41,520 bases of DNA from IMG/VR virus record IMGVR_UViG_3300010052_000075, positions 1-41,520 of that record; one strand, 5' to 3'. Under the pieces are notes generated by a model, which saw nothing but the letters and a program-made list of their open reading frames with translations, was not told the DNA's origin and did not search any database. This DNA is from a virus. Its lineage: Duplodnaviria > Caudoviricetes. How positions within the stretch are numbered: position 1 is the first letter of the stretch; each line of letters opens with the position of its first letter. Made by a program: the position numbers and the translations under genes. Below, piece after piece: positions 17,134 through 34,575 of the stretch.

Positions 17134-17474
17134 GCTTCCATCCTCTCTGTCCGCTCGTGCTGCTGAGGGACGCCGGTCGCCGCATATCGGCGGGCGTCGG
17201 TTTCGATCTGCCGCTCAACGACCGCGCGAGCCTCGGCGGCCGGAAGGCCTTTGCTGTTCGTCAGGTGGCGATAGGCGTCGCGATAGCCGGGCGGGCACCA
17301 AGCGAGCTGATTGGCGCGGGCCCAGGCGCGGAACGATGCCGCGGCCTTCGCGCGCGCTTCTGGCGTCCAGGCGAGGTCGAGGGCGTGGCGCCGGCAAAGG
17401 CCGCTGACGTTCCGGCCGCGCCGGTCGAGCGCGGTGGTGCAGCCGGGGGCGGTGCAGGTGGGGACGCTGATCAT
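17130..17474 (-). CDS. Hypothetical protein with CxxxxC...CxxH zinc motif
   Basis: 114 aa, ATGA coupled on both sides. Confidence 0.65.
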   Translation of the reverse strand: MISVPTCTAPGCTTALDRRGRNVSGLCRRHALDLAWTPEARAKAAASFRAWARANQLAWCPPGYRDAYRHLTNSKGLPAAEARAVVERQIETDARRYAATGVPQQHERTERMEA

Positions 17475-18835
17475 GCCGCCAGCCTTTCAACGGCCCGGCC
17501 GTCTAGATGAGCTTTGACTGTTTCGATCCATTGGATCGCCGTTTCGAGGTCGAGGGCATTGCCGTAACCCCGCAGGAGCCCCACGCGGGCGGGAGCCGCA
17601 TGAGCCAGCGGGAATGTTCCGGGTTCAACTGCCCGCCACTTTCCATCTCGGCAGAAGAGCCAATCAGCATCTCCCCGGCTGCGGTTAGGCGCATGGGCGT
17701 CGCCTCGGCCGTCACCGATTGCAGGTCCCCGCCACCCGAAGCCGTCCGCCCAAGTTCCTGCTTGCGGGCCGCGCTCTCCGCGCCGCCGGTGATCGTTCGC
17801 GGGGTCAGATAGCCCGCCAGCTCCACGCAATTCGGAAGCTCGCTGTTCTTGTGCTCCGCTGCTCCCGCCCGGCCCCGCGAATCCGCTGCCATCGGGGTGG
17901 GCCACCCCGAGAGGAGGGCGACCGTTTTGCGGCTGCTGTCGTTGTTCCCGGCGGCGTTGTTGCCATTCTGCGCTGGCGTCCCGGCCATTGCCGTCGGCCA
18001 ACCCGTGAGCGGTGCCGTCTCCGATAGACCCATCATCCCTGGTCGGGGCGAAATCTCCCCGCGCTTGCCCCCATCGGCCGTCAATGTCGTCGGCCACCCG
18101 GCTAAGTGCGTCGCTACCGCGGTCAGGGTGTCCGCCTTGCCACGCCCCCAGCGCATCCCCGAGCTCTCCGAGTCCTCCGAGCGCGACGTCGGCCAGCCCG
18201 ACAAAATAGGCGCGCTGCCGGATGTGATGGCCGCCATGCTCGCCGCCAAGGTTGCGGCCAGCGAAGTCGGCAAAATCACGAAGAGCCCCGGCCACCACGG
18301 GATCGGGGCAAAGGTGTATGGCCCGAGATAGGCGCTCGCTCCAGACGCTTTCGCCGAAGGCTTCCAGCCCTGCGCCCGCAGCGCACAGATCGGCCGCCCC
18401 GAAGGCGTAGCCCGCTCTTTCCAGGTCAGACGATACAAGATCGATCCAGACCAAGGCATCTTTGCTCGCAACCTGCTCGCCAAGGATGACTGGAGGGCGA
18501 CGCTCGCCGATGAGCCAATGCCAGTCGGGCCAGAGGTGCCGCTCGTCGTCAAACCCATCGCCTTTGCCTGCCGCGCTGAAAGGCTGGCACGGGCAGGAGC
18601 CGGTCCAGACGGGGCGATCGTCGGCCCATCCGGCCGCGCGGAGGGCGAGGGGCCAGACGCCGATTCCGGCGAAGAAGTGGCACTGAGTAAATCCAGCAAG
18701 CTCGTCTGGTGCGATGTCACTGATTGACCTTTCGTCGACGACGCCGGGCGCGATATGGCCTTGCGCGATCAGCTCGAGCAGCCACGCCGCCGCTTTGGGG
18801 TCGTGCTCGTTGTAGAAGGCGAGGGGCGCGCTCAT
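17471..18835 (-). CDS. DNA (cytosine-5) methyltransferase, catalytic (alpha-like) frame
   Basis: FFAGIG (I), GSCPCQPFS (IV), GEQV (VI), HIRQR (VIII), LRGYGNA (X); YNE.DP motif II placed before motif I; low-complexity middle where the second frame carries the information. Confidence 0.9.
17503..18720 (-). CDS. Overprinted MTase partner polypeptide (beta-like; TRD-like GWPT repeats + motif IX-like LNP..RWLM.LP)
   Basis: 405 codons on the same strand in another frame; AAGG SD upstream; five L[SAT]G[WY][PL]T repeats and [18 protein letters not shown]. Confidence 0.75.
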
Positions 18836-18996
18836 TTCCGCCCCTCCGCATTGCAGATGACGCAGAAGCCCGGCCCCGCGCAGCCGATGATTGAGCCGTC
18901 AGGAGCGCGAAACAGGTGATGCAGGCGAACGCTCAGTTCGCGGCGCACGTAATCGCGCCGCATCTCGGTGCCGATCAAGGGCAGGCGGAACGTCAT
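18832..18996 (-). CDS. Small hypothetical protein (54 aa, C-terminal CxxC)
   Basis: Read manually MTFRLPLIGTEMRR...[17 protein letters not shown]; ATGA overlaps at both ends. Confidence 0.6.
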   Translation of the reverse strand: MTFRLPLIGTEMRRDYVRRELSVRLHHLFRAPDGSIIGCAGPGFCVICNAEGRK

Positions 18997-19586
18997 GCCG
19001 CCGCCTCGAATTTCGTCGTCTCGTTGCCCCAGACATCCCAGCCAGGTCGCGACTGGCGCGCGAAGAGTTCTACCAAGCGCGTGGCGCGTGGCATGATCCG
19101 TTCGCAGATTTCGTATTGCTCGTCGGGCTTGCGGCTATGCTCGCGCCGAACCGCGTCAATGGCATCGAGATCCTCGGTTTCGATGACGTTGCGAATGTTG
19201 TTCGCCGTCGCCGGGCTCCCCAATGTGCCGATAAGGTAAGGTTCGGTCGCGCTGCGAAGGACATAGCCGCATCCAAAGGCGGACTTCCCTCGCGGTGTGC
19301 GCTTATGCCAGGCGCCGCCGGTGACATAGCGAAAGCCCCAAGCACGAAGGAGATCAAGCGATTGCTCGAGCGAAGGCCAGCACGCCCACATCATCAACAC
19401 GCAGTCCCCCCGGCCGAGCTGCGACACGGGCATCGCGGCGAGTTCCTCCCACGTCATGGTAGGATAATGAGCATCGGGGCCCTTTCCGGCGCCCGCGGCC
19501 GAATAGGTTTCGAACCGCGTCGCCGGGTCCGCGAGGATCACGTCGTACGACAAAGGCGGTAGGGGGTCGAAAGGCCAAACGGTCAT
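18993..19586 (-). CDS. MT-A70 family N6-adenine methyltransferase
   Basis: YDVILADP, HYPTM, WGFRY, EPYLIG, REHSRKPD, LVELFARQSRPGWDVWGNE; catalytic motif reads DPAT. Confidence 0.9.
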   Translation of the reverse strand: MTVWPFDPLPPLSYDVILADPATRFETYSAAGAGKGPDAHYPTMTWEELAAMPVSQLGRGDCVLMMWACWPSLEQSLDLLRAWGFRYVTGGAWHKRTPRGKSAFGCGYVLRSATEPYLIGTLGSPATANNIRNVIETEDLDAIDAVRREHSRKPDEQYEICERIMPRATRLVELFARQSRPGWDVWGNETTKFEAAA

Positions 19587-20533
19587 CCCGCGCGCTCCGG
19601 CGGCCAAGGCAGCGCGGCGAGATTTTTCATCACCGTGCGGGGCTCGGACCAAAGCTTCGGCTCAGCCATGTCTTCCGACGGCGCCGAAGAGACGCTGAAG
19701 CGCGCCATGATCGAGGGAAGATCGGTCGGCAACTTCATGCGCGGGCCGAGCACGAGCGAGCGCTTGATTGCCTCGCAGCCCTCGCGGATCATCGCGGGCG
19801 ATGCCTGTTCGAACGCATCGGCAATGCCGGCGATCGCCTCGTCGGATGCGACATAGGGCGCGAGATACATGCTGACGATGGCGAAGCGCTCGGCAGCGCC
19901 GGGAAGGTCTATTTCGATCTGGAGCTGAAAGCGCCGCCAGATTGCGGGATCGATGCCCTTGGCGACGTTGGTCGCCGCGAAGAGGAGGCCGTCGTGCTGA
20001 TCGAACTCCTGGAGGAGCGCGATCGTGATGTTGGCAACCTCGTTATCGCACGCCTGATCGCCGAGCTTCTCGCGCGAGCGCGCCATCGCGTCGAACTCGT
20101 CGAAAAAGAGCGCGACGTCGTGGCCACCCCGGCGGGCCGCGCGGAAGAGCTTGCGGATATTGCTGCCCGTCCCGCCAAGCGAGCCGCTGATCATGGCGCT
20201 GGACTGGATGACGACCATCGGCACGCCCAGGCGCGCGGTGATATGGTGCGCCAACGTCGTCTTGCCGCAGCCGGGCGGGCCGGAGAGCAGGCATCGGCTG
20301 CGCGACTTCAGGCCAACGGCCTTCAGCTCGTCTTCGGCGTTCATTTCGAACAGCCATTGGTGCAGCGCGCCGCGGACGGGCGGCGTCAGGATCGGGGCCT
20401 CGGCGTCGCCCGGCATGACGATCACGCCATAGGCACCGAATTCCTTCTCGAGGTCGCCGCGAGAGGAGCCGGGGTCGCCCCTCAGCTCCTCCAGCGTCGT
20501 CGGCTCAATCCGTTCGGTTCGGCGGCGGCTCAT
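19583..20533 (-). CDS. AAA+ ATPase (classic clade, IetA-like)
   Basis: GPPGCGKT, FFDEFD, AATN, IDPAIWRRF. Confidence 0.9.
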   Translation of the reverse strand: MSRRRTERIEPTTLEELRGDPGSSRGDLEKEFGAYGVIVMPGDAEAPILTPPVRGALHQWLFEMNAEDELKAVGLKSRSRCLLSGPPGCGKTTLAHHITARLGVPMVVIQSSAMISGSLGGTGSNIRKLFRAARRGGHDVALFFDEFDAMARSREKLGDQACDNEVANITIALLQEFDQHDGLLFAATNVAKGIDPAIWRRFQLQIEIDLPGAAERFAIVSMYLAPYVASDEAIAGIADAFEQASPAMIREGCEAIKRSLVLGPRMKLPTDLPSIMARFSVSSAPSEDMAEPKLWSEPRTVMKNLAALPWPPERAG

Positions 20534-21297
20534 TCAGCGCCGCCGTCATCGCTGGCGCCATCGGCTGCCTTGCCCTTCTTCGGCTTCGGCTTGGGCTTCA
20601 GCGCGTCGGGAATCTCCATCCCGTCGCTGCCGAGCGCGGCGCACCACGCTTCGTCCCATGCCGCGCGACGCGGGTCGCGGGCGGGGAAGGGGTTCGACGT
20701 AACCGGCGCGCCGGCCGCGGCAGCATCGGCGCCCATGTGGCGGGCATCGTCGACCGTGGGCTCGGGCGCCGGCGGCTCGACCGGGGCCTCGCTGCCGTCG
20801 GGCTGGCGGAGCACCGTGCGGCGTCCGGCGCTGTCGGGGGCCGAGACGATGCCGACGGCCTCCATCTGCTCGATCAGGCGGGCAGCAGGGTTGTATGCGA
20901 TCTTGAAGTGGCGCTGAAGCGCGGACACCGATGCATTCTGCGAGGAAACGACATAGGCGATCGCGTCGTCGAGGTCGATTTCGGGGCTGGCAATTTCGGC
21001 GTCGGCCTCATCTTTGTCGAGCCGCTCCAGCGCCCACCGGCCGAGCGGCGTGCCGTCCAGCATGCCGAGCGCGGCCTTGTACGTGTCGAGCAGCGCCTCG
21101 CGCTCGCGGCGCTCGTGCGGATCCATCGCGCGGAGCTTGATGATTTCCTTGATCGTCTTCGTGTCGAAGCCCTGCGACTTCGCTTCGAGGAAAACGTCGC
21201 GGATATCGTCCGCGATGTTCTTCTTCTCCTCGGTGAGTCGCTCTACCCGCTCGACGAACAGGCGCAGTTGTTCGGACGCAATGGCACCTTCTGCCAT
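20530..21297 (-). CDS. GapR/DUF2312 - FtsK gamma - Rmf-like fusion protein
   Basis: aa1-80 EQLRLFVERVERLTEEKK...AKSQGFD..LLDTYKAALGM; middle ASVSALQRHFKIAYNPAARLIEQMEAVGIVS; C-term NPFPARDPRRAAWDEAW; AAGGAG SD. Confidence 0.85.
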   Translation of the reverse strand: MAEGAIASEQLRLFVERVERLTEEKKNIADDIRDVFLEAKSQGFDTKTIKEIIKLRAMDPHERREREALLDTYKAALGMLDGTPLGRWALERLDKDEADAEIASPEIDLDDAIAYVVSSQNASVSALQRHFKIAYNPAARLIEQMEAVGIVSAPDSAGRRTVLRQPDGSEAPVEPPAPEPTVDDARHMGADAAAAGAPVTSNPFPARDPRRAAWDEAWCAALGSDGMEIPDALKPKPKPKKGKAADGASDDGGAE

Positions 21298-21356: not shown

Positions 21357-21827
21357 TCAGTGCGGCGCTGAACCGCCCCCCGCGATGGAATTGATGGCCG
21401 GCAGCTCCTCCGCTGCGACTTTGGCGATGACGAGCAGATCGCCATGATCGATGTGGCCATCTTCGTTCGCGTCGGCGATCGCGCTGGCGATGCGGGCCGC
21501 AGCGCGACCCGCGCGGCGCACCGTCGCGGCCTCGTCGACCTCCATCGGCGCCGTGCTGAAACCCATGCGGCTCGCGACGCGCTGGAAGGCGGCGGGCGGC
21601 AGGGCAGCGAAGATGCGCATGAAGACGTCGGCAGGCATCATCGGCGCGTTGGCGTCGGTGTAGCTGCGCAGGCGGCGCTCCCACGTCCTCAGGTCGCCTT
21701 CACCGTCGAAGGTGGCCTCGGCCAGCTCGGCGAAGGAGAAGCGCTTGGCGTGCCCGACATACAGCCGGAGCGTGTCGCCCAGCAGCATTTTTACAGCCGG
21801 AGTGGAAAATTGACCAATTAATTCCAT
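21357..21827 (-). CDS. Phage regulatory protein (CII-like)
   Basis: Position after cro; HTH-like N-part and C-terminal ADANEDGHIDH motif typical of CII/YmfL-like proteins. Confidence 0.55.
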   Translation of the reverse strand: MELIGQFSTPAVKMLLGDTLRLYVGHAKRFSFAELAEATFDGEGDLRTWERRLRSYTDANAPMMPADVFMRIFAALPPAAFQRVASRMGFSTAPMEVDEAATVRRAGRAAARIASAIADANEDGHIDHGDLLVIAKVAAEELPAINSIAGGGSAPH

Positions 21828-21981: not shown

Positions 21982-22242
21982 TCAGGCCGCCACCTTCGGG
22001 CGCAGGCCGCAGTCGGCGCGGATGCACGAGGTGCAGGCCGGGTCGTCGGCGCGCAGCTCGCAGGCGCCGCACGTGGCGACGTGGGCCGCGATGATGGCTT
22101 GGAGGGCAAGCTCGGTTCGCTTGTCGATCGCGAGCGCGCCCGTCTCGAATTTGGAGATGGTGGACTGATCGAGGCCGAGGCGTTCGCCCAACTCGATCTG
22201 CGTAAGGCCCAGCTGGCGCCGAATGTCTCGGAGGTTGTCCAT
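21982..22242 (-). CDS. Cro-like HTH protein with C-terminal Cys cluster
   Basis: LRDIRRQLGLTQIELGERLGLDQSTISKFETG; divergent from cI; apparently leaderless. Confidence 0.85.
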   Translation of the reverse strand: MDNLRDIRRQLGLTQIELGERLGLDQSTISKFETGALAIDKRTELALQAIIAAHVATCGACELRADDPACTSCIRADCGLRPKVAA

Positions 22243-22250
22243 GAGCACCG

Positions 22251-22339
22251 CTGATATTCTCACAGGAATAAATATGCAAGCAAGAATATTCCCGCAGGCA
22301 TTAGAATTGTCGGAGAAGGTGAATTATGCCTCAGGCATG
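22251..22339. promoter_or_regulatory. Right operator/promoter region (OR, PR)
   Basis: Operators TATTCTCACAGGAATA 22255-22270, TATTCCCGCAGGCATT 22287-22302, variant TATGCCTCAGGCATG 22325-22339; minus-strand TTGCAT-17-TATCAG 8 nt before cro ATG. Confidence 0.7.
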
Positions 22340-23023
22340 TCGCAAACCGTGCTCGCGCAGAACATCGTCGCCCTTCGACAGCACCTTGGCTTGAAGCAGG
22401 GGCCGTTCGCGGAGCTCGTCGGCACCCAGCAATCGAATATCTCGAAATGGGAAGGTGGCACCGTCCCCGAGGGGCGCAATTACGCGATGCTCGCCTACAT
22501 CGCCGGCGCGCATCCCGACGAGTTCTACGATCAGCCGTGGACGCCGCCGAAGGAACCCGGCCGATCGAAGCCAGGCGCGATGACGACCGACGATCTTGCG
22601 GAGGAGCTCGGACTAGCGCTGATCGACGAAGTGGATCTCGCGCTCGGGATGGGCGCGACCTATCTGGACGCCACGCCAGAGGTGAAGGGCCGCGCGCCGT
22701 TTCGGCTGGAGTGGCTGCGGGGCCTGTATGACGGCCCGGTCGAGGCGCTCAAGGTCGTGCAGGGGCGCGGCGACAGCATGGAGCCGACAATTCGCGATGG
22801 CGATATCGTACTGATCGACACCTCGTCGCGGCGCCTCGATGATCAGGATCTGATCTGGGCGGTCAGTTATGGCGACCTTGGCATGATCCGGCGCCTCCGC
22901 CGCCTGCCTTCAGGCGCGCTGCTCATGTCGCCCGACAATCCCGTTGTCCGGCCGACCGAGGCGCATGATGGCGAATGCCATATCATGGGGCGGGTGATTT
23001 TCATCGGCCGCCGGATGGGATAG
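22337..23023 (+). CDS. CI-like repressor (XRE HTH + S24 peptidase domain)
   Basis: LRQHLGLKQGPFAELVGTQQSNISKWEGG; GDSMEPTIRDGDIVLID; SPDNP; IMGRVI; start re-called at 22337. Confidence 0.92.
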   Translation: MSQTVLAQNIVALRQHLGLKQGPFAELVGTQQSNISKWEGGTVPEGRNYAMLAYIAGAHPDEFYDQPWTPPKEPGRSKPGAMTTDDLAEELGLALIDEVDLALGMGATYLDATPEVKGRAPFRLEWLRGLYDGPVEALKVVQGRGDSMEPTIRDGDIVLIDTSSRRLDDQDLIWAVSYGDLGMIRRLRRLPSGALLMSPDNPVVRPTEAHDGECHIMGRVIFIGRRMG

Positions 23024-23036
23024 AGCTTGGCCGGCT

Positions 23037-23420
23037 ATGCTGGCGCAGATCACGCTCCCGATCGTTGGTATCGACTTCCCGAACAAGAGCGGTCCCGCGC
23101 GTCGGTTCGGCATCGAGCTGCTCCAGCCGGGCGATCGGGTAAAACTGCGGGCCGAGCCGAAAAATCCCTATGACGAGAATGCGGTCGCGGTCTTCACGAC
23201 GACCGATATCCAGCTCGGCTATCTGCCTGCCAATCGTGCGCCCTATGTCGGTCAGCAGATCCGGCGCGGCGAGGTGAAGGCTATCTTTCAGGGCGCGGGT
23301 GGCCGCGGCTATTTCGTGAGGATTGCATTCGGTGGCGAGGATCCGGTGTTGCCGCCGGCGCCCGATGCGTCGGACGAGCCCGCGGATTGGTACCCCGACG
23401 AGATATTCCCCGACGACTAG
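23037..23420 (+). CDS. HIRAN domain protein
   Basis: IVGIDF...L.PGD.V.LRAEPKNPYDENAVAV...QLGYLP. Confidence 0.88.
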   Translation: MLAQITLPIVGIDFPNKSGPARRFGIELLQPGDRVKLRAEPKNPYDENAVAVFTTTDIQLGYLPANRAPYVGQQIRRGEVKAIFQGAGGRGYFVRIAFGGEDPVLPPAPDASDEPADWYPDEIFPDD

Positions 23421-23728
23421 GCCGCGGCGGGCAGGGCGTCGCCGCCACCGTGCGCCATCATCTCCACCATCAGGCTTTGACGCATCTCGGCGCGCTTCTC
23501 TCGGAGCATGCCGGGGATGAGGAAGGCGTCGATGATGACCCAGATGAAGCCGACGATCAGGAAATAGGAGATGATCTGCAGAATCGCGCTGGCCGGGCGG
23601 CCGAGGTAAAAGCGGTGCCCGCTAACGAACCACAGAAAGAACCACAGCACATAGGCGATCGCCGTGCTGGGGCCGTCGTTCGTGACCCGCTGCTCGACCA
23701 GCATCATCTGATTCGTGGAAAGCGCCAT
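23417..23728 (-). CDS. TM2 domain membrane protein
   Basis: STAIAYVLWFFL...GHRFYLG...IW.IIDAFLIP; start re-called at 23728. Confidence 0.85.
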   Translation of the reverse strand: MALSTNQMMLVEQRVTNDGPSTAIAYVLWFFLWFVSGHRFYLGRPASAILQIISYFLIVGFIWVIIDAFLIPGMLREKRAEMRQSLMVEMMAHGGGDALPAAA

Positions 23729-23819
23729 CTTCGATCCCCTGTCCCTTTGCGGTGACAATAGACGGCTCGCGATAGCAATCCAAGGATTTGCGGTTGCGCG
23801 GGGTCGGTTGGAGCAGGAA

Positions 23820-25698: not shown

Positions 25699-26024
25699 TG
25701 CTGACCAACGAAACCGCTCGGAAGATCGCATACGCCTATGCCGAGATTGAGGCCGGCGAGAAGCTTCTCGCGGATGTGCGTGCTGCGATGGAGAAGGTCG
25801 CCCCGGTCGACATTCGGGACGTCTTTGGTCGCCCGGTAAGGCGGATAGAGATAGGCATTCCGTCCGGGGACAATAGTCGGCGCCTCCTGCACGTTGAGTA
25901 TGAACTCGCGGTGCCTGTGATCGAGGCCCATATCGCGCAAAAACACGCTCAACTGAAGCTGCTCAACGAACTCGCGCGCGCAGAAGTCAGCGGCGGCAGG
26001 GTTGAGGAGGGCGACGCGCAGTGA
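25695..26024 (+). CDS. Hypothetical protein
   Basis: 109 aa, GGAGAG SD. Confidence 0.6.
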   Translation: MMLTNETARKIAYAYAEIEAGEKLLADVRAAMEKVAPVDIRDVFGRPVRRIEIGIPSGDNSRRLLHVEYELAVPVIEAHIAQKHAQLKLLNELARAEVSGGRVEEGDAQ

Positions 26025-26599
26025 CACAGCAATTCCCCCTGCAATGGCCCGACGGCATGCCGCGAACCGCGCGCCATCAACCGTCCCCGTTTCGCTCGAC
26101 GCTCGCCAGCGCGCTCAAAAATGTGCGCGGGTCGATCGTCGCGTTCGGAAAAGACAGCGGGCGCCAGGTTACGGACGTGATCATTTCGTCGAACGTCACG
26201 CTTGGCGTTGACCGGCCAAGCGATCCGGGCGTGTCACTATGGTTCACCTGGGACGAGGGGCAGAGGTGCATCGCGGTTGATCGCTATCCGAAGCCCGAGG
26301 ACAACCTCCAGGCGATCCATCACATTCTTGAGGCCCGACGCACCGAAATGCGGCACGGCGGGCTTCATATCGTGCGGCAGACCTTCAAGGGCTTCCTCGC
26401 GCTTCCTTCGCCCGACGCGGTCGACTGGCGGAAGCTGTTCGGTTTCAAGCCGGGCGAGTTGGTCACCCCGGCCGCGATCGACGTGGCATTCCGCGAGAGG
26501 GCGAAGGCGGCGCACCCCGACAGACAGGGCGGCAACGAGCAGGCGATGGCCGAACTCAACCTTGCGCGTGACGCGGCGACGCGGGCGGTGATGGGATGA
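26021..26599 (+). CDS. Phage protein with C-terminal J (DnaJ) domain
   Basis: FPLQWPDGMPRT...DPGVSLWF...DNL.AI; W..LFG...AFRERAKAAHPDRQGG...MAELNLARDAA (HPD motif). Confidence 0.88.
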   Translation: MTQQFPLQWPDGMPRTARHQPSPFRSTLASALKNVRGSIVAFGKDSGRQVTDVIISSNVTLGVDRPSDPGVSLWFTWDEGQRCIAVDRYPKPEDNLQAIHHILEARRTEMRHGGLHIVRQTFKGFLALPSPDAVDWRKLFGFKPGELVTPAAIDVAFRERAKAAHPDRQGGNEQAMAELNLARDAATRAVMG

Positions 26600-30939: not shown

Positions 30940-31022
30940 GTGTGGGGGAAGTGTGGGGGAAGATTGTCTTTCCCCCACACTCGGGTTCCCCAGAATGTGG
31001 GGAGAAAGTGTGGGGGAAGATT
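30940..31022. repeat. Integrase arm-type repeats (second element)
   Basis: GTGTGGGGGAA at 30940, 30951, 31008; inverted TTCCCCCACAC at 30970. Confidence 0.75.
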
Positions 31023-31025
31023 CCC

Positions 31026-32252
31026 ATGGGCAAACTCACGGCGGTTGCAGTCAAGGCCGCTCTCGCGAATCCGGGCACCTATCAGGATGGTGACGGCTTG
31101 TTTTTGAAGGTCGACAAGCGGGGAGGGGCGTCGTGGACCCTCCGCCTGCAGCGCGACGGCAAGCGTCAGGATATCGGGCTGGGCAGTGCGAAGTTGTTCA
31201 CTTTGGCGCAGGTCCGCGCGAAGGCCGGCGAGCTACGCAAGGCGGTCAAGGTCGACCGGCGCGACATATTGGCTGAGCGGAAGGACGAGGCGTCTGCCAA
31301 GGTGACGTTTCGCGAGGCGGCGAGGCAATATCGCGCCGAGAACGAGGCGGGATGGAAGAGCGAGATCTACGCCCGCCAATGGCTTTCCAGCCTCGAGAAT
31401 TATGCCTTCCCGAAACTGGGCGACGAGCAGACCGGTGCGATTGTCGCGGCTGACATCATAAACGTGCTCACGCCGATCTGGCAGGAGATACCCGAGACCG
31501 CTCGTCAGGTGCGCAACCGGATCTGCACCGTGCTGGATTATGCGCATGCAAAGGGCTGGCGTTCACGCGAGGCTCCCTCAGGTAATAGCAGCCTGAAAGC
31601 GGGGCGTGGCTTGCCGCGGCAACTCAAGAAGACCGAGAATCGCAAGGCTATGCCATATGCGGCTTTGCCCGGTTTCATCACTGCACTGCAGCGAAAGCCA
31701 TCCTACAGCAGGCTTGCCCTGGAACTACTCATTCTGACTGGTGCGCGCAGCCAGGAGGTGCGTCTGGCGACCTGGGACGAACTCGACATCGAAGCGCGGC
31801 TATGGACTGTGCCCGCCGATCATATGAAGCGTGGCAAGTCGCATATCGTGCCGCTGTCCGATGCCGCGGTGGAAGTGATTGCAAAAGCGCATGCTTTCAG
31901 GCTCCCGGACACAGACGTGATTTTCCCCGGTGCGAGTGGGAAGAATATGTCCGATATGACGCTGCTCAAGGTTCTTCGTGACATGGCTGAGCCTTTTCAT
32001 GTCCACGGCTTCCGGTCGACATTCACCGATTGGGCGGCGAACGAGGGTTTCCCCGATGCCGTCGTGGAAGCGGCGCTTGCGCACAAGACGCCGGATGCAG
32101 TGCAGGCCGCTTACCGTCGGACGACCTACCTCGGGACCGCGGAAAGGCCTGGCGAGCGTGTCAGGCTCATGGGTGCGTGGGGCAGTTATTGCCTCGGCCG
32201 CAAAGTCGTTGCGGACGACGGGGAACAGACAGGAGGCGGAGAGGCGGAGTAG
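31026..32252 (+). CDS. P4-type tyrosine integrase with arm-binding domain
   Basis: DGDGLFLKV...W.LR...GK...IGLG; catalytic TGAR, MKRGK, HGFRS, LAH, AAYRR; start re-called at 31026. Confidence 0.95.
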   Translation: MGKLTAVAVKAALANPGTYQDGDGLFLKVDKRGGASWTLRLQRDGKRQDIGLGSAKLFTLAQVRAKAGELRKAVKVDRRDILAERKDEASAKVTFREAARQYRAENEAGWKSEIYARQWLSSLENYAFPKLGDEQTGAIVAADIINVLTPIWQEIPETARQVRNRICTVLDYAHAKGWRSREAPSGNSSLKAGRGLPRQLKKTENRKAMPYAALPGFITALQRKPSYSRLALELLILTGARSQEVRLATWDELDIEARLWTVPADHMKRGKSHIVPLSDAAVEVIAKAHAFRLPDTDVIFPGASGKNMSDMTLLKVLRDMAEPFHVHGFRSTFTDWAANEGFPDAVVEAALAHKTPDAVQAAYRRTTYLGTAERPGERVRLMGAWGSYCLGRKVVADDGEQTGGGEAE

Positions 32253-32448: not shown

Positions 32449-34575
32449 ATGGCTTCCAAGCAAAAAATCACGCTCGATCAACCGCAGGCCATCCCGCTCG
32501 ACCGGTTGCGGCTTTCGGACGCAAATGTTCGGCGGATCAAGCCCGGCCAGTCAGTTGCCGAACTGGCCGACAGCATCGCACGGCGCGGGTTGCTGCAAAA
32601 CCTGAATGTCCGCCCGATCCTCGACAGCCAAGGCAACCCTACCGGTTACTTTGAGGTGCCGGCCGGCGGGCGACGCTACCGCGCGCTCCAGCTGCTGGTG
32701 AAGCAGAAGCGGCTCGCCAACAATGCGCCGATCCCGTGCAGGGTACGGGCTGCGAACGACGATATCCTGGCCGAAGAGGACAGTCTCGCCGAGAATTCGG
32801 AGCGCGTGAGTCTGCACCCGCTCGACCAGTTTCGTGGCATGCAGGCGCTCGCCGACAAGGGAAATGCCGTCGAAGACATCGCCGCGCACTTCTTCGTCAC
32901 GCCCGCGGTGGTCAGGCAGCGCCTCAAGCTGGCCAGCGTGTCGTCGAAGCTGCTCGACATCTATGGTGACGACGGCATGTCGCTCGAGACCCTGATGGCA
33001 TTCACCGTGACGGACGATGAGGAGCGCCAGATCCAGGTCTGGGAGATGGTCGAGCACGATTTCCAGCCATCGACCTCGTTCATCCGCCAGAAGCTGACGG
33101 AAAACAGTGTCCGCATATCCGACAAGCGCGTCCGTTTCGTCGGCCTGGACGCCTATGTCGAGGAGGGCGGCAGCGTCGTTCGCGACCTGTTCGAAGTCGA
33201 TCACGGCGGCTGGCTCACCGACGTCGGCCTGCTCGACCGGCTCGTCGCCGAGAAGTTCGAAGCCGAAGCGGCGCGGATCGGCGAGGAAGGCTGGAAATGG
33301 ATCGACGCCGCGATCGAGCATGTCTTCAATCCCGGGCGCGGCCTGCGCGCGCTTGCCGGCGACGAGGTCCCAATGAGCGCGGAGGAGGAGAAGCTTGGCG
33401 CTGACCTCGAAGCGGAGGGCGAAGCGCTGAGCAACGAATGGAGCGATGCGGACGAGGTCCCCGACGAGGTCCATGCGCGGCTCGAGGAGATCGACGCCGA
33501 GATCAGCCGCATCAACGACCGCCCGATTGTCTTCGATGCCGCCGACATCGCCATCGCCGGTGCGTTCGTCTCGATCGATATCGACGGAAGGCTGCGCGTC
33601 GAGCGCGGCTATGTGAAGCCGGAGGACGAACCCGAAGCCGAACCGGTGGAGGGCGATGAGGGCACTGACGAGGGCGCGAATGACCCCGGCGGCGGCGATG
33701 GCAGTTCCAAGACCGCGTCTTCGGCTCCCGCCCAATCTGCGGCCGAGCCCGAGGACGATGAAGGCGGCTTGAAGCCGATGTCGGAGCGCCTCGTGTCCGA
33801 CCTTACGGCGTGGCGGACGCTCGCGCTCCAGGATGCCTTTGCGAAGTGCCCGGAGACGGCGTATATCGCCGTGCTCCATGCGTTCGTCCTGTCCTGCTTT
33901 TACGGTTACAGCCACGAAAGCTGCCTGCAGACGTCCATCAACTCGGTCCATTTCTCCAACGCTCCGGTTGGTCTGCGCGACTGCGCTCCGGGCCAAGCGA
34001 TCGCGGCGCGCATCGATGAGTGGCGCTCGCGCTTGCCGAAGAGTGACAAGGAGGTCTGGGACTGGCTGCTCGAAATCGGCGACGAGGACCGGGCGAGCCT
34101 CCTTGCGCATTGCGCCTCGCTCGGCGTCAACGCGCAGGCCGAGATCGTCCGGGGCTATGATGGCCGCGTTTCGGCGCATGGGATCGCCCGGCGGCTTGCG
34201 CACAGCCATATCCTCGCGCGTGCCGTGGGGCTCGATGTCGTCGAGGCGGGCTGGCGCCCGACCGCCGACGGCTATCTGAGCAGCGTTCCCAAGCCGAGGA
34301 TTCTCGCCGACGTCACCGAGGCGCGCGGCGAGAATTTCGCGGGGATGATTGACCATCTCAAGAAAGGCGACATGGCGCGCGAAGCCGAGCGCCTGCTCGA
34401 AGACGCCGGCTGGCTTCCCGAGACTATGCGGACGCCCGAGAATGAGGTTGCAGCGGCTCCGGCGCCCGAGGCGACTGCGCCGGCCAACGACGAGGCGGAT
34501 AGCGAGCTTCCCGCTTTTCTCGCGGAGGAGGGAGGTGAAGCTGAGGGCGATCCCGACGTGATCGCCGCCGAATGA
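32449..34575 (+). CDS. ParB/RepB/Spo0J-family protein (plasmid/ICE type, 708 aa)
   Basis: IPLDRL...NVRR...LADSIARRGLLQNLNVRP...AGGRRYRAL...SLAENSER..LHPLDQF...F.VT..VVRQRLKLA; KKGDMAREAE..L...GWLP. Confidence 0.9.
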   Translation: MASKQKITLDQPQAIPLDRLRLSDANVRRIKPGQSVAELADSIARRGLLQNLNVRPILDSQGNPTGYFEVPAGGRRYRALQLLVKQKRLANNAPIPCRVRAANDDILAEEDSLAENSERVSLHPLDQFRGMQALADKGNAVEDIAAHFFVTPAVVRQRLKLASVSSKLLDIYGDDGMSLETLMAFTVTDDEERQIQVWEMVEHDFQPSTSFIRQKLTENSVRISDKRVRFVGLDAYVEEGGSVVRDLFEVDHGGWLTDVGLLDRLVAEKFEAEAARIGEEGWKWIDAAIEHVFNPGRGLRALAGDEVPMSAEEEKLGADLEAEGEALSNEWSDADEVPDEVHARLEEIDAEISRINDRPIVFDAADIAIAGAFVSIDIDGRLRVERGYVKPEDEPEAEPVEGDEGTDEGANDPGGGDGSSKTASSAPAQSAAEPEDDEGGLKPMSERLVSDLTAWRTLALQDAFAKCPETAYIAVLHAFVLSCFYGYSHESCLQTSINSVHFSNAPVGLRDCAPGQAIAARIDEWRSRLPKSDKEVWDWLLEIGDEDRASLLAHCASLGVNAQAEIVRGYDGRVSAHGIARRLAHSHILARAVGLDVVEAGWRPTADGYLSSVPKPRILADVTEARGENFAGMIDHLKKGDMAREAERLLEDAGWLPETMRTPENEVAAAPAPEATAPANDEADSELPAFLAEEGGEAEGDPDVIAAE

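What the first reader, a model, noticed from the sequence alone, without database searches (positions are those of the whole stretch)
20530..21297. GapR(DUF2312)-FtsK gamma-Rmf-like three-domain phage protein
Seen: N-terminal ~80 aa GapR-like (21297-21058), central FtsK gamma winged helix ASVSALQRHFKIAYNPAARLIEQME..GIVS (~20980-20810), C-terminal G..AA.AG.....NPF....RRAAWDEAW Rmf-like motif. Established: GapR binds overtwisted DNA and stimulates type II topoisomerases in alphaproteobacteria and can hetero-oligomerise with phage homologues; FtsK gamma reads KOPS and activates XerD. Inference: a phage factor that joins host GapR oligomers and brings a KOPS/XerD-interacting domain, to block host segregation or to resolve phage DNA topology.
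Basis: partly seen in the sequence, partly recalled or inferred. Interest (0 to 1): 0.78.

Follow-up and report, generated by a model that had tools for sequence, protein, structure and literature searches.

The report
Phage GapR clamp docks AAA unfoldase
This prophage gene encodes a copy of the bacterial DNA-clamping protein GapR whose small tail domain is predicted to plug into the protein-unfolding motor encoded by the overlapping next gene; the two genes almost always travel together and would likely let the virus pull host GapR off DNA, while the FtsK piece is real but optional.

Summary
All three domains are real: GapR (Pfam 6e-33), FtsK-gamma (5e-21) and an Rmf-type fold (below sequence cut-offs; RMF is the best structural match). 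Gamma is optional: absent in 69 of the 120 closest relatives, central in 38, C-terminal in 13, doubled N-terminally in Rhodobacter phages.

The conserved unit is a two-gene early-operon module, GapR-Rmf-fold protein plus the overlapping p97/IetA-like AAA ATPase (19583-20533). The ATPase follows in 71 of 72 non-redundant loci with the tail, 1 of 6 without, and 50 of 50 in a sister subfamily. A complex prediction docks the tail on the ATPase (0.72, best control 0.00; mark reached by 116 of 157 solved and 2 of 215 mismatched pairs). Five loci fuse the tail to the ATPase.

Likeliest mechanism (inferred, 0.4): an ATP-driven remover of GapR clamps, host GapR included. It is not IetAS (no protease). 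I found it in none of my paper searches; this scan noted the pairing before on other DNA (e1-3267549). Cultured Rhodobacter RcC phages make it testable.

The parts
20530..21297 (-). Gene for the 255-aa GapR-gamma-Rmf-fold protein (P0001)
21064..21279 (-). GapR/DUF2312 domain, aa 7-78; K25, R33, K40, K47, K50, K54 match Caulobacter K34, K42, K49, K56, K59, R63; the K66 position is Ala
21019..21063 (-). Conserved extension after GapR helix 3 (MLDGTPLGxWA plus helix), absent from the short host GapR proteins aligned
   Evidence: 10 of its 11 positions invariant in the 120 best hits
20806..20973 (-). FtsK gamma winged helix, aa 109-164; optional insert
20590..20766 (-). Rmf-fold domain plus GSDGMEIPDAL tail, aa 178-236; predicted docking module for the ATPase
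19583..20533 (-). 316-aa single-ring classic AAA ATPase (p97/IetA-like), start overlapping the upstream stop (ATGA); Walker A K91, Walker B D145/E146, R154, sensor N189, R200/R201 invariant in 64 of 64
21357..21827 (-). CII-like gene directly upstream (context: early operon)
   Evidence: phrog_101 E 0.015; homologue L019 E 1.9e-5
21982..22263 (-). Cro-like HTH gene (context)
22223..23023 (+). CI-like repressor, HTH plus S24 (context)
18993..19652 (-). MT-A70 methyltransferase gene downstream of the ATPase (context; not conserved next to the module)
30942..32252 (+). The prophage's own tyrosine integrase (context: integration need not use host Xer)

Best explanation
The protein is one half of a two-gene early module of alphaproteobacterial phages: its Rmf-fold tail is predicted to dock on the AAA ATPase encoded by the overlapping next gene, and the pair would likely act as an ATP-driven remover of GapR clamps, host GapR included, from DNA. 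Steps: (1) shown: domains, gene overlap, two-way linkage, intact catalytic motifs. (2) Predicted, about 0.8: the tail binds the ATPase's N-terminal helices, the post-Walker-A loop (aa 97-104) and the small domain (aa 214-235). This partly overlaps where p97 docks its own N-domain, so the protein would serve as a detached adaptor for an ATPase that has no N-domain. (3) Inferred, about 0.7: the GapR domain tetramerises around DNA and mixes with host GapR. (4) Inferred, about 0.5 given 2 and 3: the ring threads the protein's unstructured linker or tail and pulls on GapR helix 3, opening mixed clamps, which disturbs host replication or frees type II topoisomerase activity for phage DNA. Gamma is an accessory, repeatedly borrowed DNA/XerD-binding surface; four copies on a tetramer could give KOPS avidity and bias the complex to chromosomal sites.
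For: Linkage: ATPase downstream in 96 of 97 tail-bearing loci with at least 1 kb of DNA (window included) vs 1 of 12 without the tail; 113 examined, 4 dropped as too short. After clustering at 80%: 71 of 72 vs 1 of 6, Fisher p 1.7e-6. The one tail-less exception, L113, keeps a WDEG..GSDGM remnant. Reverse search: 34 of 35 ATPase loci have GapR plus tail upstream, the 35th being cut; 30 were contigs seen before, and 4 of 4 assessable new ones agree. Sister subfamily: 50 of 50. Eleven cultured Rhodobacter phages match both genes; adjacency read in 3. Complex: score 0.72, best of 3 controls 0.00; mark reached by 116 of 157 solved complexes and 2 of 215 mismatched pairs; runs agree in at least 98% of contacts, partner pLDDT at least 85. 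R101 and D215, a top predicted contact, occur together in 59 of 59 paired loci; predicted interface columns are more conserved than others (0.69 vs 0.59, p 0.018; 0.78 vs 0.61, p 0.01). R101 occurs in 1, H97 in 2 and G103 in 2 of 11 IetA-type outgroups, while catalytic residues are kept in 11 of 11. Where the partner lacks the IPxxW/L tail end, its predicted pocket is lost: position 217 aromatic and 218 Ala/Ser in 64 of 64, vs E33/R7/Q4 and R29/K6/L4/H4 among 49 sister ATPases. Five of 52 sister ATPases carry their own fused Rmf-fold copy. Of 47 genome loci, 40 are labelled alphaproteobacterial, 5 unspecified Proteobacteria, 2 other MAGs. Neighbours are repressor, CII, helicase, SSB, integrase, methylases.
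Against: No experiment or expression data. The substrate is not identified, and mixing with host GapR was not modelled. The pore-loop-1 aromatic is Ser in this ATPase (S118; Tyr 30, Ser 8, Trp 6 of 64), so threading may be weak. GapR basic residues are eroded in distant members (only 31 of 122 keep 6-7 of 7). Inter-protein covariation is weak and phylogeny-dominated (8 of the top 100 pairs in the interface vs 4.4 expected). The sister ATPases form one clade, so the pocket change is one event, not 49. The complex was run with my own alignments, for which the calibration holds only roughly, and confident contacts may favour conserved columns. L019 has the tail but no ATPase within 5.9 kb. The nearest named ATPase family is the defence protein IetA.
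Confidence: 0.4

Rival explanations
1. Tether model: the GapR (plus gamma) part only anchors the ATPase on overtwisted or AT-rich DNA, and the ATPase strips other DNA-bound proteins (stalled RNA polymerase, topoisomerase adducts, repressors, initiation complexes, XerCD/FtsK) to help phage replication; host GapR is not the target.
For: Same linkage and docking evidence. Neighbours are replication genes. Extra DNA-binding gamma domains were added at three positions, as expected if DNA targeting is what varies.
Against: No substrate-recognition domain or conserved third gene. The near-restriction to alphaproteobacteria fits a GapR-specific role, although GapR itself is restricted to that group (PMC13408042 passage).
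Confidence: 0.25
2. IetAS-like toxin-antitoxin or abortive defence: the GapR fusion is a dominant-negative poison of host GapR, kept in check by the ATPase until a superinfecting phage tips the balance.
For: Best named family for the ATPase is IetA (PADLOC E 8.9e-54; NF042959 164 bits vs cut-off 510). Its nearest outgroups sit beside IetS proteases (6 of 6 scanned). The two genes overlap, as is typical of such pairs.
Against: No IetS in 219 module loci or the window, positive controls 3 of 3. The module lies in Cro/CII-type early operons, not as a moron. It is present in all 11 RcC-type phage records matched, and RcDormio has no annotated integrase. No match among 72,556 plasmids at E 1e-40.
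Confidence: 0.12
3. One reading: a stand-alone factor in which GapR poisons or joins host oligomers and gamma acts on KOPS or XerD to block segregation or resolve phage DNA dimers, like the XafT activator of TLC phage.
For: Of six E. coli XerD-contact residues (PMC5052618 Table 1) four are identical, one conservative (R to K) and one changed (G to A). R1300, E1303 and E1306 equivalents are all kept. Q1288, R1289 and N1296 equivalents are kept in 39, 38 and 37 of 39 central gammas. E. coli-type KOPS number 13 vs 6.8 expected in the window (3 of 100 shuffles).
Against: Gamma is absent in 69 of 120. This copy has Pro in the recognition helix and a long branch (0.49 vs 0.01-0.08 for sisters). KOPS are not enriched in RcDormio (8 vs 9.3). 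No dif-like site, and the prophage has its own integrase. The model ignores the ATPase.
Confidence: 0.1
4. The Rmf-fold domain binds ribosomes like RMF, and the ATPase remodels hibernating or stalled ribosomes near DNA.
For: Fold match to RMF.
Against: Sequence scores are below RMF cut-offs; 19-24% identity to RMF chains. The invariant face is predicted to be occupied by the ATPase.
Confidence: 0.05

Closest known systems
GapR of Caulobacter/Bosea (PF10073; PDB 6CG8, 6CFY, 6JYK)
   Same: Same domain (E 1e-15 to 1e-19 to solved chains); 6 of 7 DNA-binding basic residues; R26-E47 and E28-R65 salt-bridge residues kept.
   Different: Three times longer, with a conserved extension, acidic/proline linkers and an Rmf-fold tail; both partners of the E31-K66 bridge are changed; below the equivalog cut-off (73.6 vs 140 bits); coupled to an ATPase.
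Phage GapR homologues and T4 DsbA (PMC12185513, PMC7824862; passages read)
   Same: GapR-family proteins in phage genomes are already reported.
   Different: The passages read describe single genes, with no Rmf-fold fusion or ATPase partner.
FtsK gamma, and phage gamma fusions such as the Sam46 small terminase (PMC8190038; passages read)
   Same: Winged helix borrowed from host FtsK and fused to a phage protein; role stated there as unknown.
   Different: Different carrier protein; here optional, in three positions, no translocase motor.
IetAS (IetA AAA ATPase plus IetS S8 protease)
   Same: Nearest named ATPase family; overlapping two-gene layout.
   Different: No protease; partner is upstream and DNA-binding; family-specific surface residues and a C-terminal PxLW..WP extension absent from IetA outgroups.
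p97/Cdc48/VAT classic AAA unfoldases with adaptors
   Same: Best PDB matches of the ATPase profile (E to 6e-72). Predicted docking site includes the equivalent of p97 T262 and lies next to that of N387, named N-D1 interface residues in PMC5102582 (my numbering rests on a recalled Walker A K251).
   Different: Single ring, no N-domain, no ubiquitin; the adaptor is a nucleoid-protein derivative.
RMF and the Rmf/CrpP-fold families (PF04957, NF041886, NF041887)
   Same: Helix-loop-helix fold and G..A...G....NP....R..W..W pattern.
   Different: Below all cut-offs; fused, with a GxDGM tail; predicted to bind an ATPase rather than the ribosome.

Membership tests
GapR family (PF10073) | Profile match above cut-off | tested here: met
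   112.7 vs 22.6 bits
GapR family (PF10073) | Channel basic residues K34, K42, K49, K56, K59, R63, K66 | tested here: met
   6 of 7 basic; K66 is Ala
GapR family (PF10073) | Tetramer encircling DNA; stimulation of gyrase/topo IV; mixing with host GapR | not testable with these tools
   Needs biochemistry; the single complex job went to the ATPase pair
GapR equivalog (NF052541) | Score above cut-off | tested here: not met
   73.6 vs 140 bits
FtsK gamma (PF09397) | Profile match above cut-off | tested here: met
   74.6 vs 30.6 bits
FtsK gamma (PF09397) | XerD-contact and KOPS-reading residues | tested here: inconclusive
   4 of 6 XerD contacts identical, 1 conservative, 1 changed; 3 of 3 KOPS residues; Pro at the R1297 position
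FtsK translocase | Alpha/beta motor and membrane domain | tested here: not met
   Only aa 109-166 match NF007615, 49.6 vs 1566 bits
RMF / Rmf-CrpP fold families | Score above curated cut-off | tested here: not met
   13.3 vs 27.9; 18.4 vs 40; 16.4 vs 28 bits
RMF / Rmf-CrpP fold families | Same fold | tested here: met
   RMF top in Foldseek (E 0.7-2.2) and VIA-align (Z 5.2, rmsd 4.2, 50 aligned); modest scores for a small helical fold
RMF / Rmf-CrpP fold families | Ribosome binding | not testable with these tools
   Needs sedimentation or cryo-EM
Classic AAA unfoldases | Walker A/B, sensor 1, arginine fingers | tested here: met
   K91, D145, E146, N189, R200, R201 in 64 of 64
Classic AAA unfoldases | Aromatic-hydrophobic-Gly pore loop 1 | tested here: inconclusive
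   Ser-Leu-Gly in this copy; Tyr 30, Ser 8, Trp 6 of 64; aromatic in 49 of 49 sister ATPases
IetAS | Adjacent IetS S8 protease | tested here: not met
   0 of 219 module loci and the window; controls 3 of 3
IetAS | IetA equivalog score | tested here: not met
   164 vs 510 bits
Xer-exploiting elements (IMEX, TLC/XafT) | dif-like attP and no own integrase | tested here: not met
   Own integrase; no match above chance to recalled dif-arm patterns, window 69% complete

The most novel reading that the evidence does not exclude
Alphaproteobacterial phages encode their own p97-like chromatin segregase: a GapR decoy that co-assembles into the host's essential supercoiling clamp and, through an Rmf-fold plug standing in for p97's N-domain, hands it to a phage AAA ring that rips it off the chromosome, with FtsK-gamma add-ons steering the machine to KOPS-rich host DNA. 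This would also give the first function for phage Rmf-fold domains: docking on AAA ATPases.
Probability: 0.25. Interest if true: 0.9.

Novelty: new variant of a known kind. Interest (0 to 1): 0.72.

Why it matters
GapR is essential in Caulobacter and how its closed clamp is opened is unsettled; a dedicated phage ATPase would be both a new host-takeover strategy and a tool to strip GapR on demand. The roles of phage GapR homologues, of orphan FtsK-gamma domains (called unknown in PMC8190038) and of Rmf-fold phage domains are each open. This module ties all three to one residue-level, testable interface (R101-D215, A218-L233). It occurs in cultured Rhodobacter capsulatus RcC phages, where the genes are annotated only as hypothetical and AAA-ATPase.

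Tried and rejected
Literature: 'GapR'+'DUF2312' gave 0 papers. 'GapR'+'phage' gave 99, 25 listed; 'FtsK'+'gamma domain'+'prophage' gave 8; two of 'GapR', 'AAA ATPase', 'prophage' gave 115, 15 listed; 'IetAS'+'ATPase' gave 20. No listing describes the module. PMC8601537 has 0 'GapR' and 0 'FtsK', and its RcC section does not mention the pair. PMC12924245 was a false hit ('gaprin'). Ricci 2016 was not held.

The Atlas feature search of the tail gave no usable hit; its structure rows were under the naming bar. The BFVD search with the whole model gave mostly unnamed rows. The tail had no tblastn match in annotated phages, although sister tails are there. P0256 alone found no loci. The metagenome scan did not run.

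Mutual information was mostly phylogenetic. The gamma tree has 62 columns and an unsettled bootstrap: it shows phage and host copies intermixed but cannot count captures; 30 of its 35 host rows were the best-scoring of 59, a biased set. Promoter/terminator scan: nothing above chance. No tRNA. No RNA holder listed. A frameshift or chimeric-assembly artefact is rejected: 37 other proteins share the architecture and GC3 is even across domains.

Full report
Observation. The ORF at 21297-20530 is a 255-aa protein. GapR (aa 7-78) and FtsK gamma (aa 109-164) pass Pfam cut-offs by wide margins and match solved chains. The Rmf-like segment fails sequence cut-offs, but its model matches RMF best in two structure searches, at modest scores. 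The whole-protein model shows three confident domains joined by low-confidence linkers (pTM 0.37). The window is a 69%-complete prophage record with head genes, a CI/Cro/CII switch, excisionase and integrase. The gene is the first after the CII-like gene. Relatives point to a sphingomonad host (inference).

Gamma is optional. Of 658 homologues, the best 120 were listed. Among these, 69 lack gamma, 38 have it centrally and 13 after the tail. Rhodobacter RcC phages have two copies at the N-terminus. This protein's GapR part is closer to gamma-less P0036/P0037 (86%) than to gamma-bearing P0002-P0004 (71-81%), so gamma is gained or lost among close kin. Phage gammas resemble sphingomonad FtsK gamma and intermix with host copies in a poorly resolved tree. 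Keller 2016 (PMC5052618; part 2 of 6 and Table 1 read) lists Q1288, R1289, R1292, I1293, G1294 and N1296 as XerD contacts, a subset of the DNA contacts; here they are Q, R, K, I, A, N. The KOPS residues R1300, E1303, E1306 (PMC2680272, passages) are kept. R1300 varies in hosts too (8 of 35) and so is uninformative. PMC3384302 (passages) states that three gammas read one KOPS; a GapR tetramer would display four (inference). Repeated capture suggests a benefit, but this copy is drifting, and dif-like sites were not found.

The conserved unit is a gene pair. The next gene (20533-19583, ATGA overlap) encodes a classic AAA ATPase. Among 113 loci, those with the tail and at least 1 kb downstream have it in 96 of 97, those without in 1 of 12; 4 were too short. 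After clustering: 71 of 72 vs 1 of 6. Searching from the ATPase side gave 34 of 35, with 30 contigs repeated and 4 of 4 new assessable ones positive. In a broader scan of 64 AAA loci, only the 3 at 39% or more full-length identity had the partner. In 301 genomes of the order of G001 the tail matched in 2 and the ATPase C-terminus strongly in the same 2 places, plus one weak match at 5e-5; G001 was chosen because it has the module. Of the 150 best tail matches among 1.84 billion representatives, 123 also have a GapR domain and 27 do not, many of them apparent fragments. A sister subfamily with an extra middle domain and a shorter tail (hhalign 99.6%) has the ATPase in 50 of 50. All five distinct gamma-central loci (window, L001/L018, L002, L017, L064) keep it. 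No third gene is conserved; neighbours are early and replication genes.

The ATPase. Catalytic residues are invariant in 64 sequences; pore loop 1 is usually aromatic but Ser here. Best structures are p97/Cdc48/VAT. The nearest named family is IetA, whose relatives sit beside IetS, but IetS is absent from 219 module loci and the window, with 3 of 3 controls found. That IetA acts as an antitoxin is recalled, not read.

Docking. The complex prediction scored 0.72 against 0.00 for the best control; the mark was reached by 116 of 157 solved and 2 of 215 mismatched pairs, runs agreed in at least 98% of contacts, and partner pLDDT was at least 85. It supports binding and does not show it, and my own alignments were used. 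Tail residues N202, A206, R211, D215, M227 and L233 contact ATPase 97-104, 57-61 and 215-222. Three sequence observations agree. (i) R101 and D215 co-occur in 59 of 59 pairs, and R101 is present in 1 of 11 IetA outgroups. (ii) The F217/A218 pocket for L233 is fixed in 64 of 64 long-tail systems and decays in the sister clade, which lacks that tail end, while contacts to the shared core stay; this is one evolutionary event. (iii) Five sister ATPases carry a fused Rmf-fold copy. Column covariation adds little. By the alignment, L102 corresponds to p97 T262 and P226 to N387, named N-D1 interface residues in PMC5102582 (passages); A232 maps outside the predicted site, so the overlap is partial.

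Mechanism. The GapR domain keeps 6 of the 7 basic residues shown to matter for DNA binding (PMC8510090, passages) and is 62-66% identical to four full-length short GapR proteins of sphingomonad genomes, taken to be the host copies, so DNA binding and mixing with host GapR are likely but untested. With the tail on the ring's outer N-face, the acidic, proline-rich linkers and the tail end are the nearest threadable chain, and they lead to helix 3, which closes the tetramer (PMC7373187 legend). I therefore favour ATP-driven opening of GapR clamps (0.4) over a pure DNA tether (0.25), toxin-antitoxin defence (0.12), a stand-alone Xer/KOPS factor (0.1) or ribosome binding (0.05).

Novelty. The parts are known. 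GapR in phages (PMC12185513, PMC7824862) and gamma fusions (PMC8190038) are in print (passages). The pair was not found in my searches, which cover open-access papers only. The few lines of it shown do not mention the docking prediction, the pocket change or the fusions. Verdict: real, a new variant of the AAA-plus-adaptor kind, interest 0.72.

Noticed in passing
MW677520.1 (L325:3646-5981), MW677517.1, MW677510.1: Cultured Rhodobacter RcC phages carry gamma-gamma-GapR-middle-Rmf-fold (annotated hypothetical) overlapping the ATPase; RcDormio has no annotated integrase, and the cluster gives turbid plaques.
   Followed up: partly
L274:4645-5736, L275, L279, L292, L293: ATPase with its own C-terminal Rmf-fold copy, in addition to the upstream partner; possibly autoinhibitory.
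   Followed up: partly
L275:4645-6771; L066/L090:6612-8567: ATPase genes with large in-frame inserts (708 and 651 aa); the L275 insert interrupts Walker A and looks like an intein by eye.
   Followed up: no
P0265, P0266, P0263; L255-L302: Sister subfamily has an unassigned domain of about 60 aa between GapR and the Rmf fold, with no Pfam match.
   Followed up: partly
window 17471-18835 and 17503-18720 (-): C5 DNA methylase region has two long overlapping ORFs in different frames (454 and 405 aa); only the first matched Pfam, so possibly a frameshifted or split gene.
   Followed up: no
window 21982-23023: Cro-like and CI-like genes diverge with almost no gap as called from the longest starts; CI has HTH plus S24.
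   Followed up: no
window 23037-23758: HIRAN-domain gene and a convergent TM2-domain membrane gene beside the repressor; possible lysogen-expressed accessories.
   Followed up: no
window 26021-26599 (+): Phage protein with a weak C-terminal DnaJ (HPD) match; homologues lie near the module in 3 loci.
   Followed up: no
window 32449-34575 (+): ParB-like plasmid/ICE-type gene right after the integrase, then host-like genes: the prophage may sit in another mobile element.
   Followed up: no
window, whole: E. coli-type KOPS 13 vs 6.8 expected, 10 on the + strand; fits replichore skew of an integrated prophage.
   Followed up: partly
L335 (G002): GapR fused to a different C-terminal region of about 80 aa, winged-helix-like by eye.
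   Followed up: no
P0252: 288-aa protein with tandem Rmf-fold repeats and no GapR.
   Followed up: no
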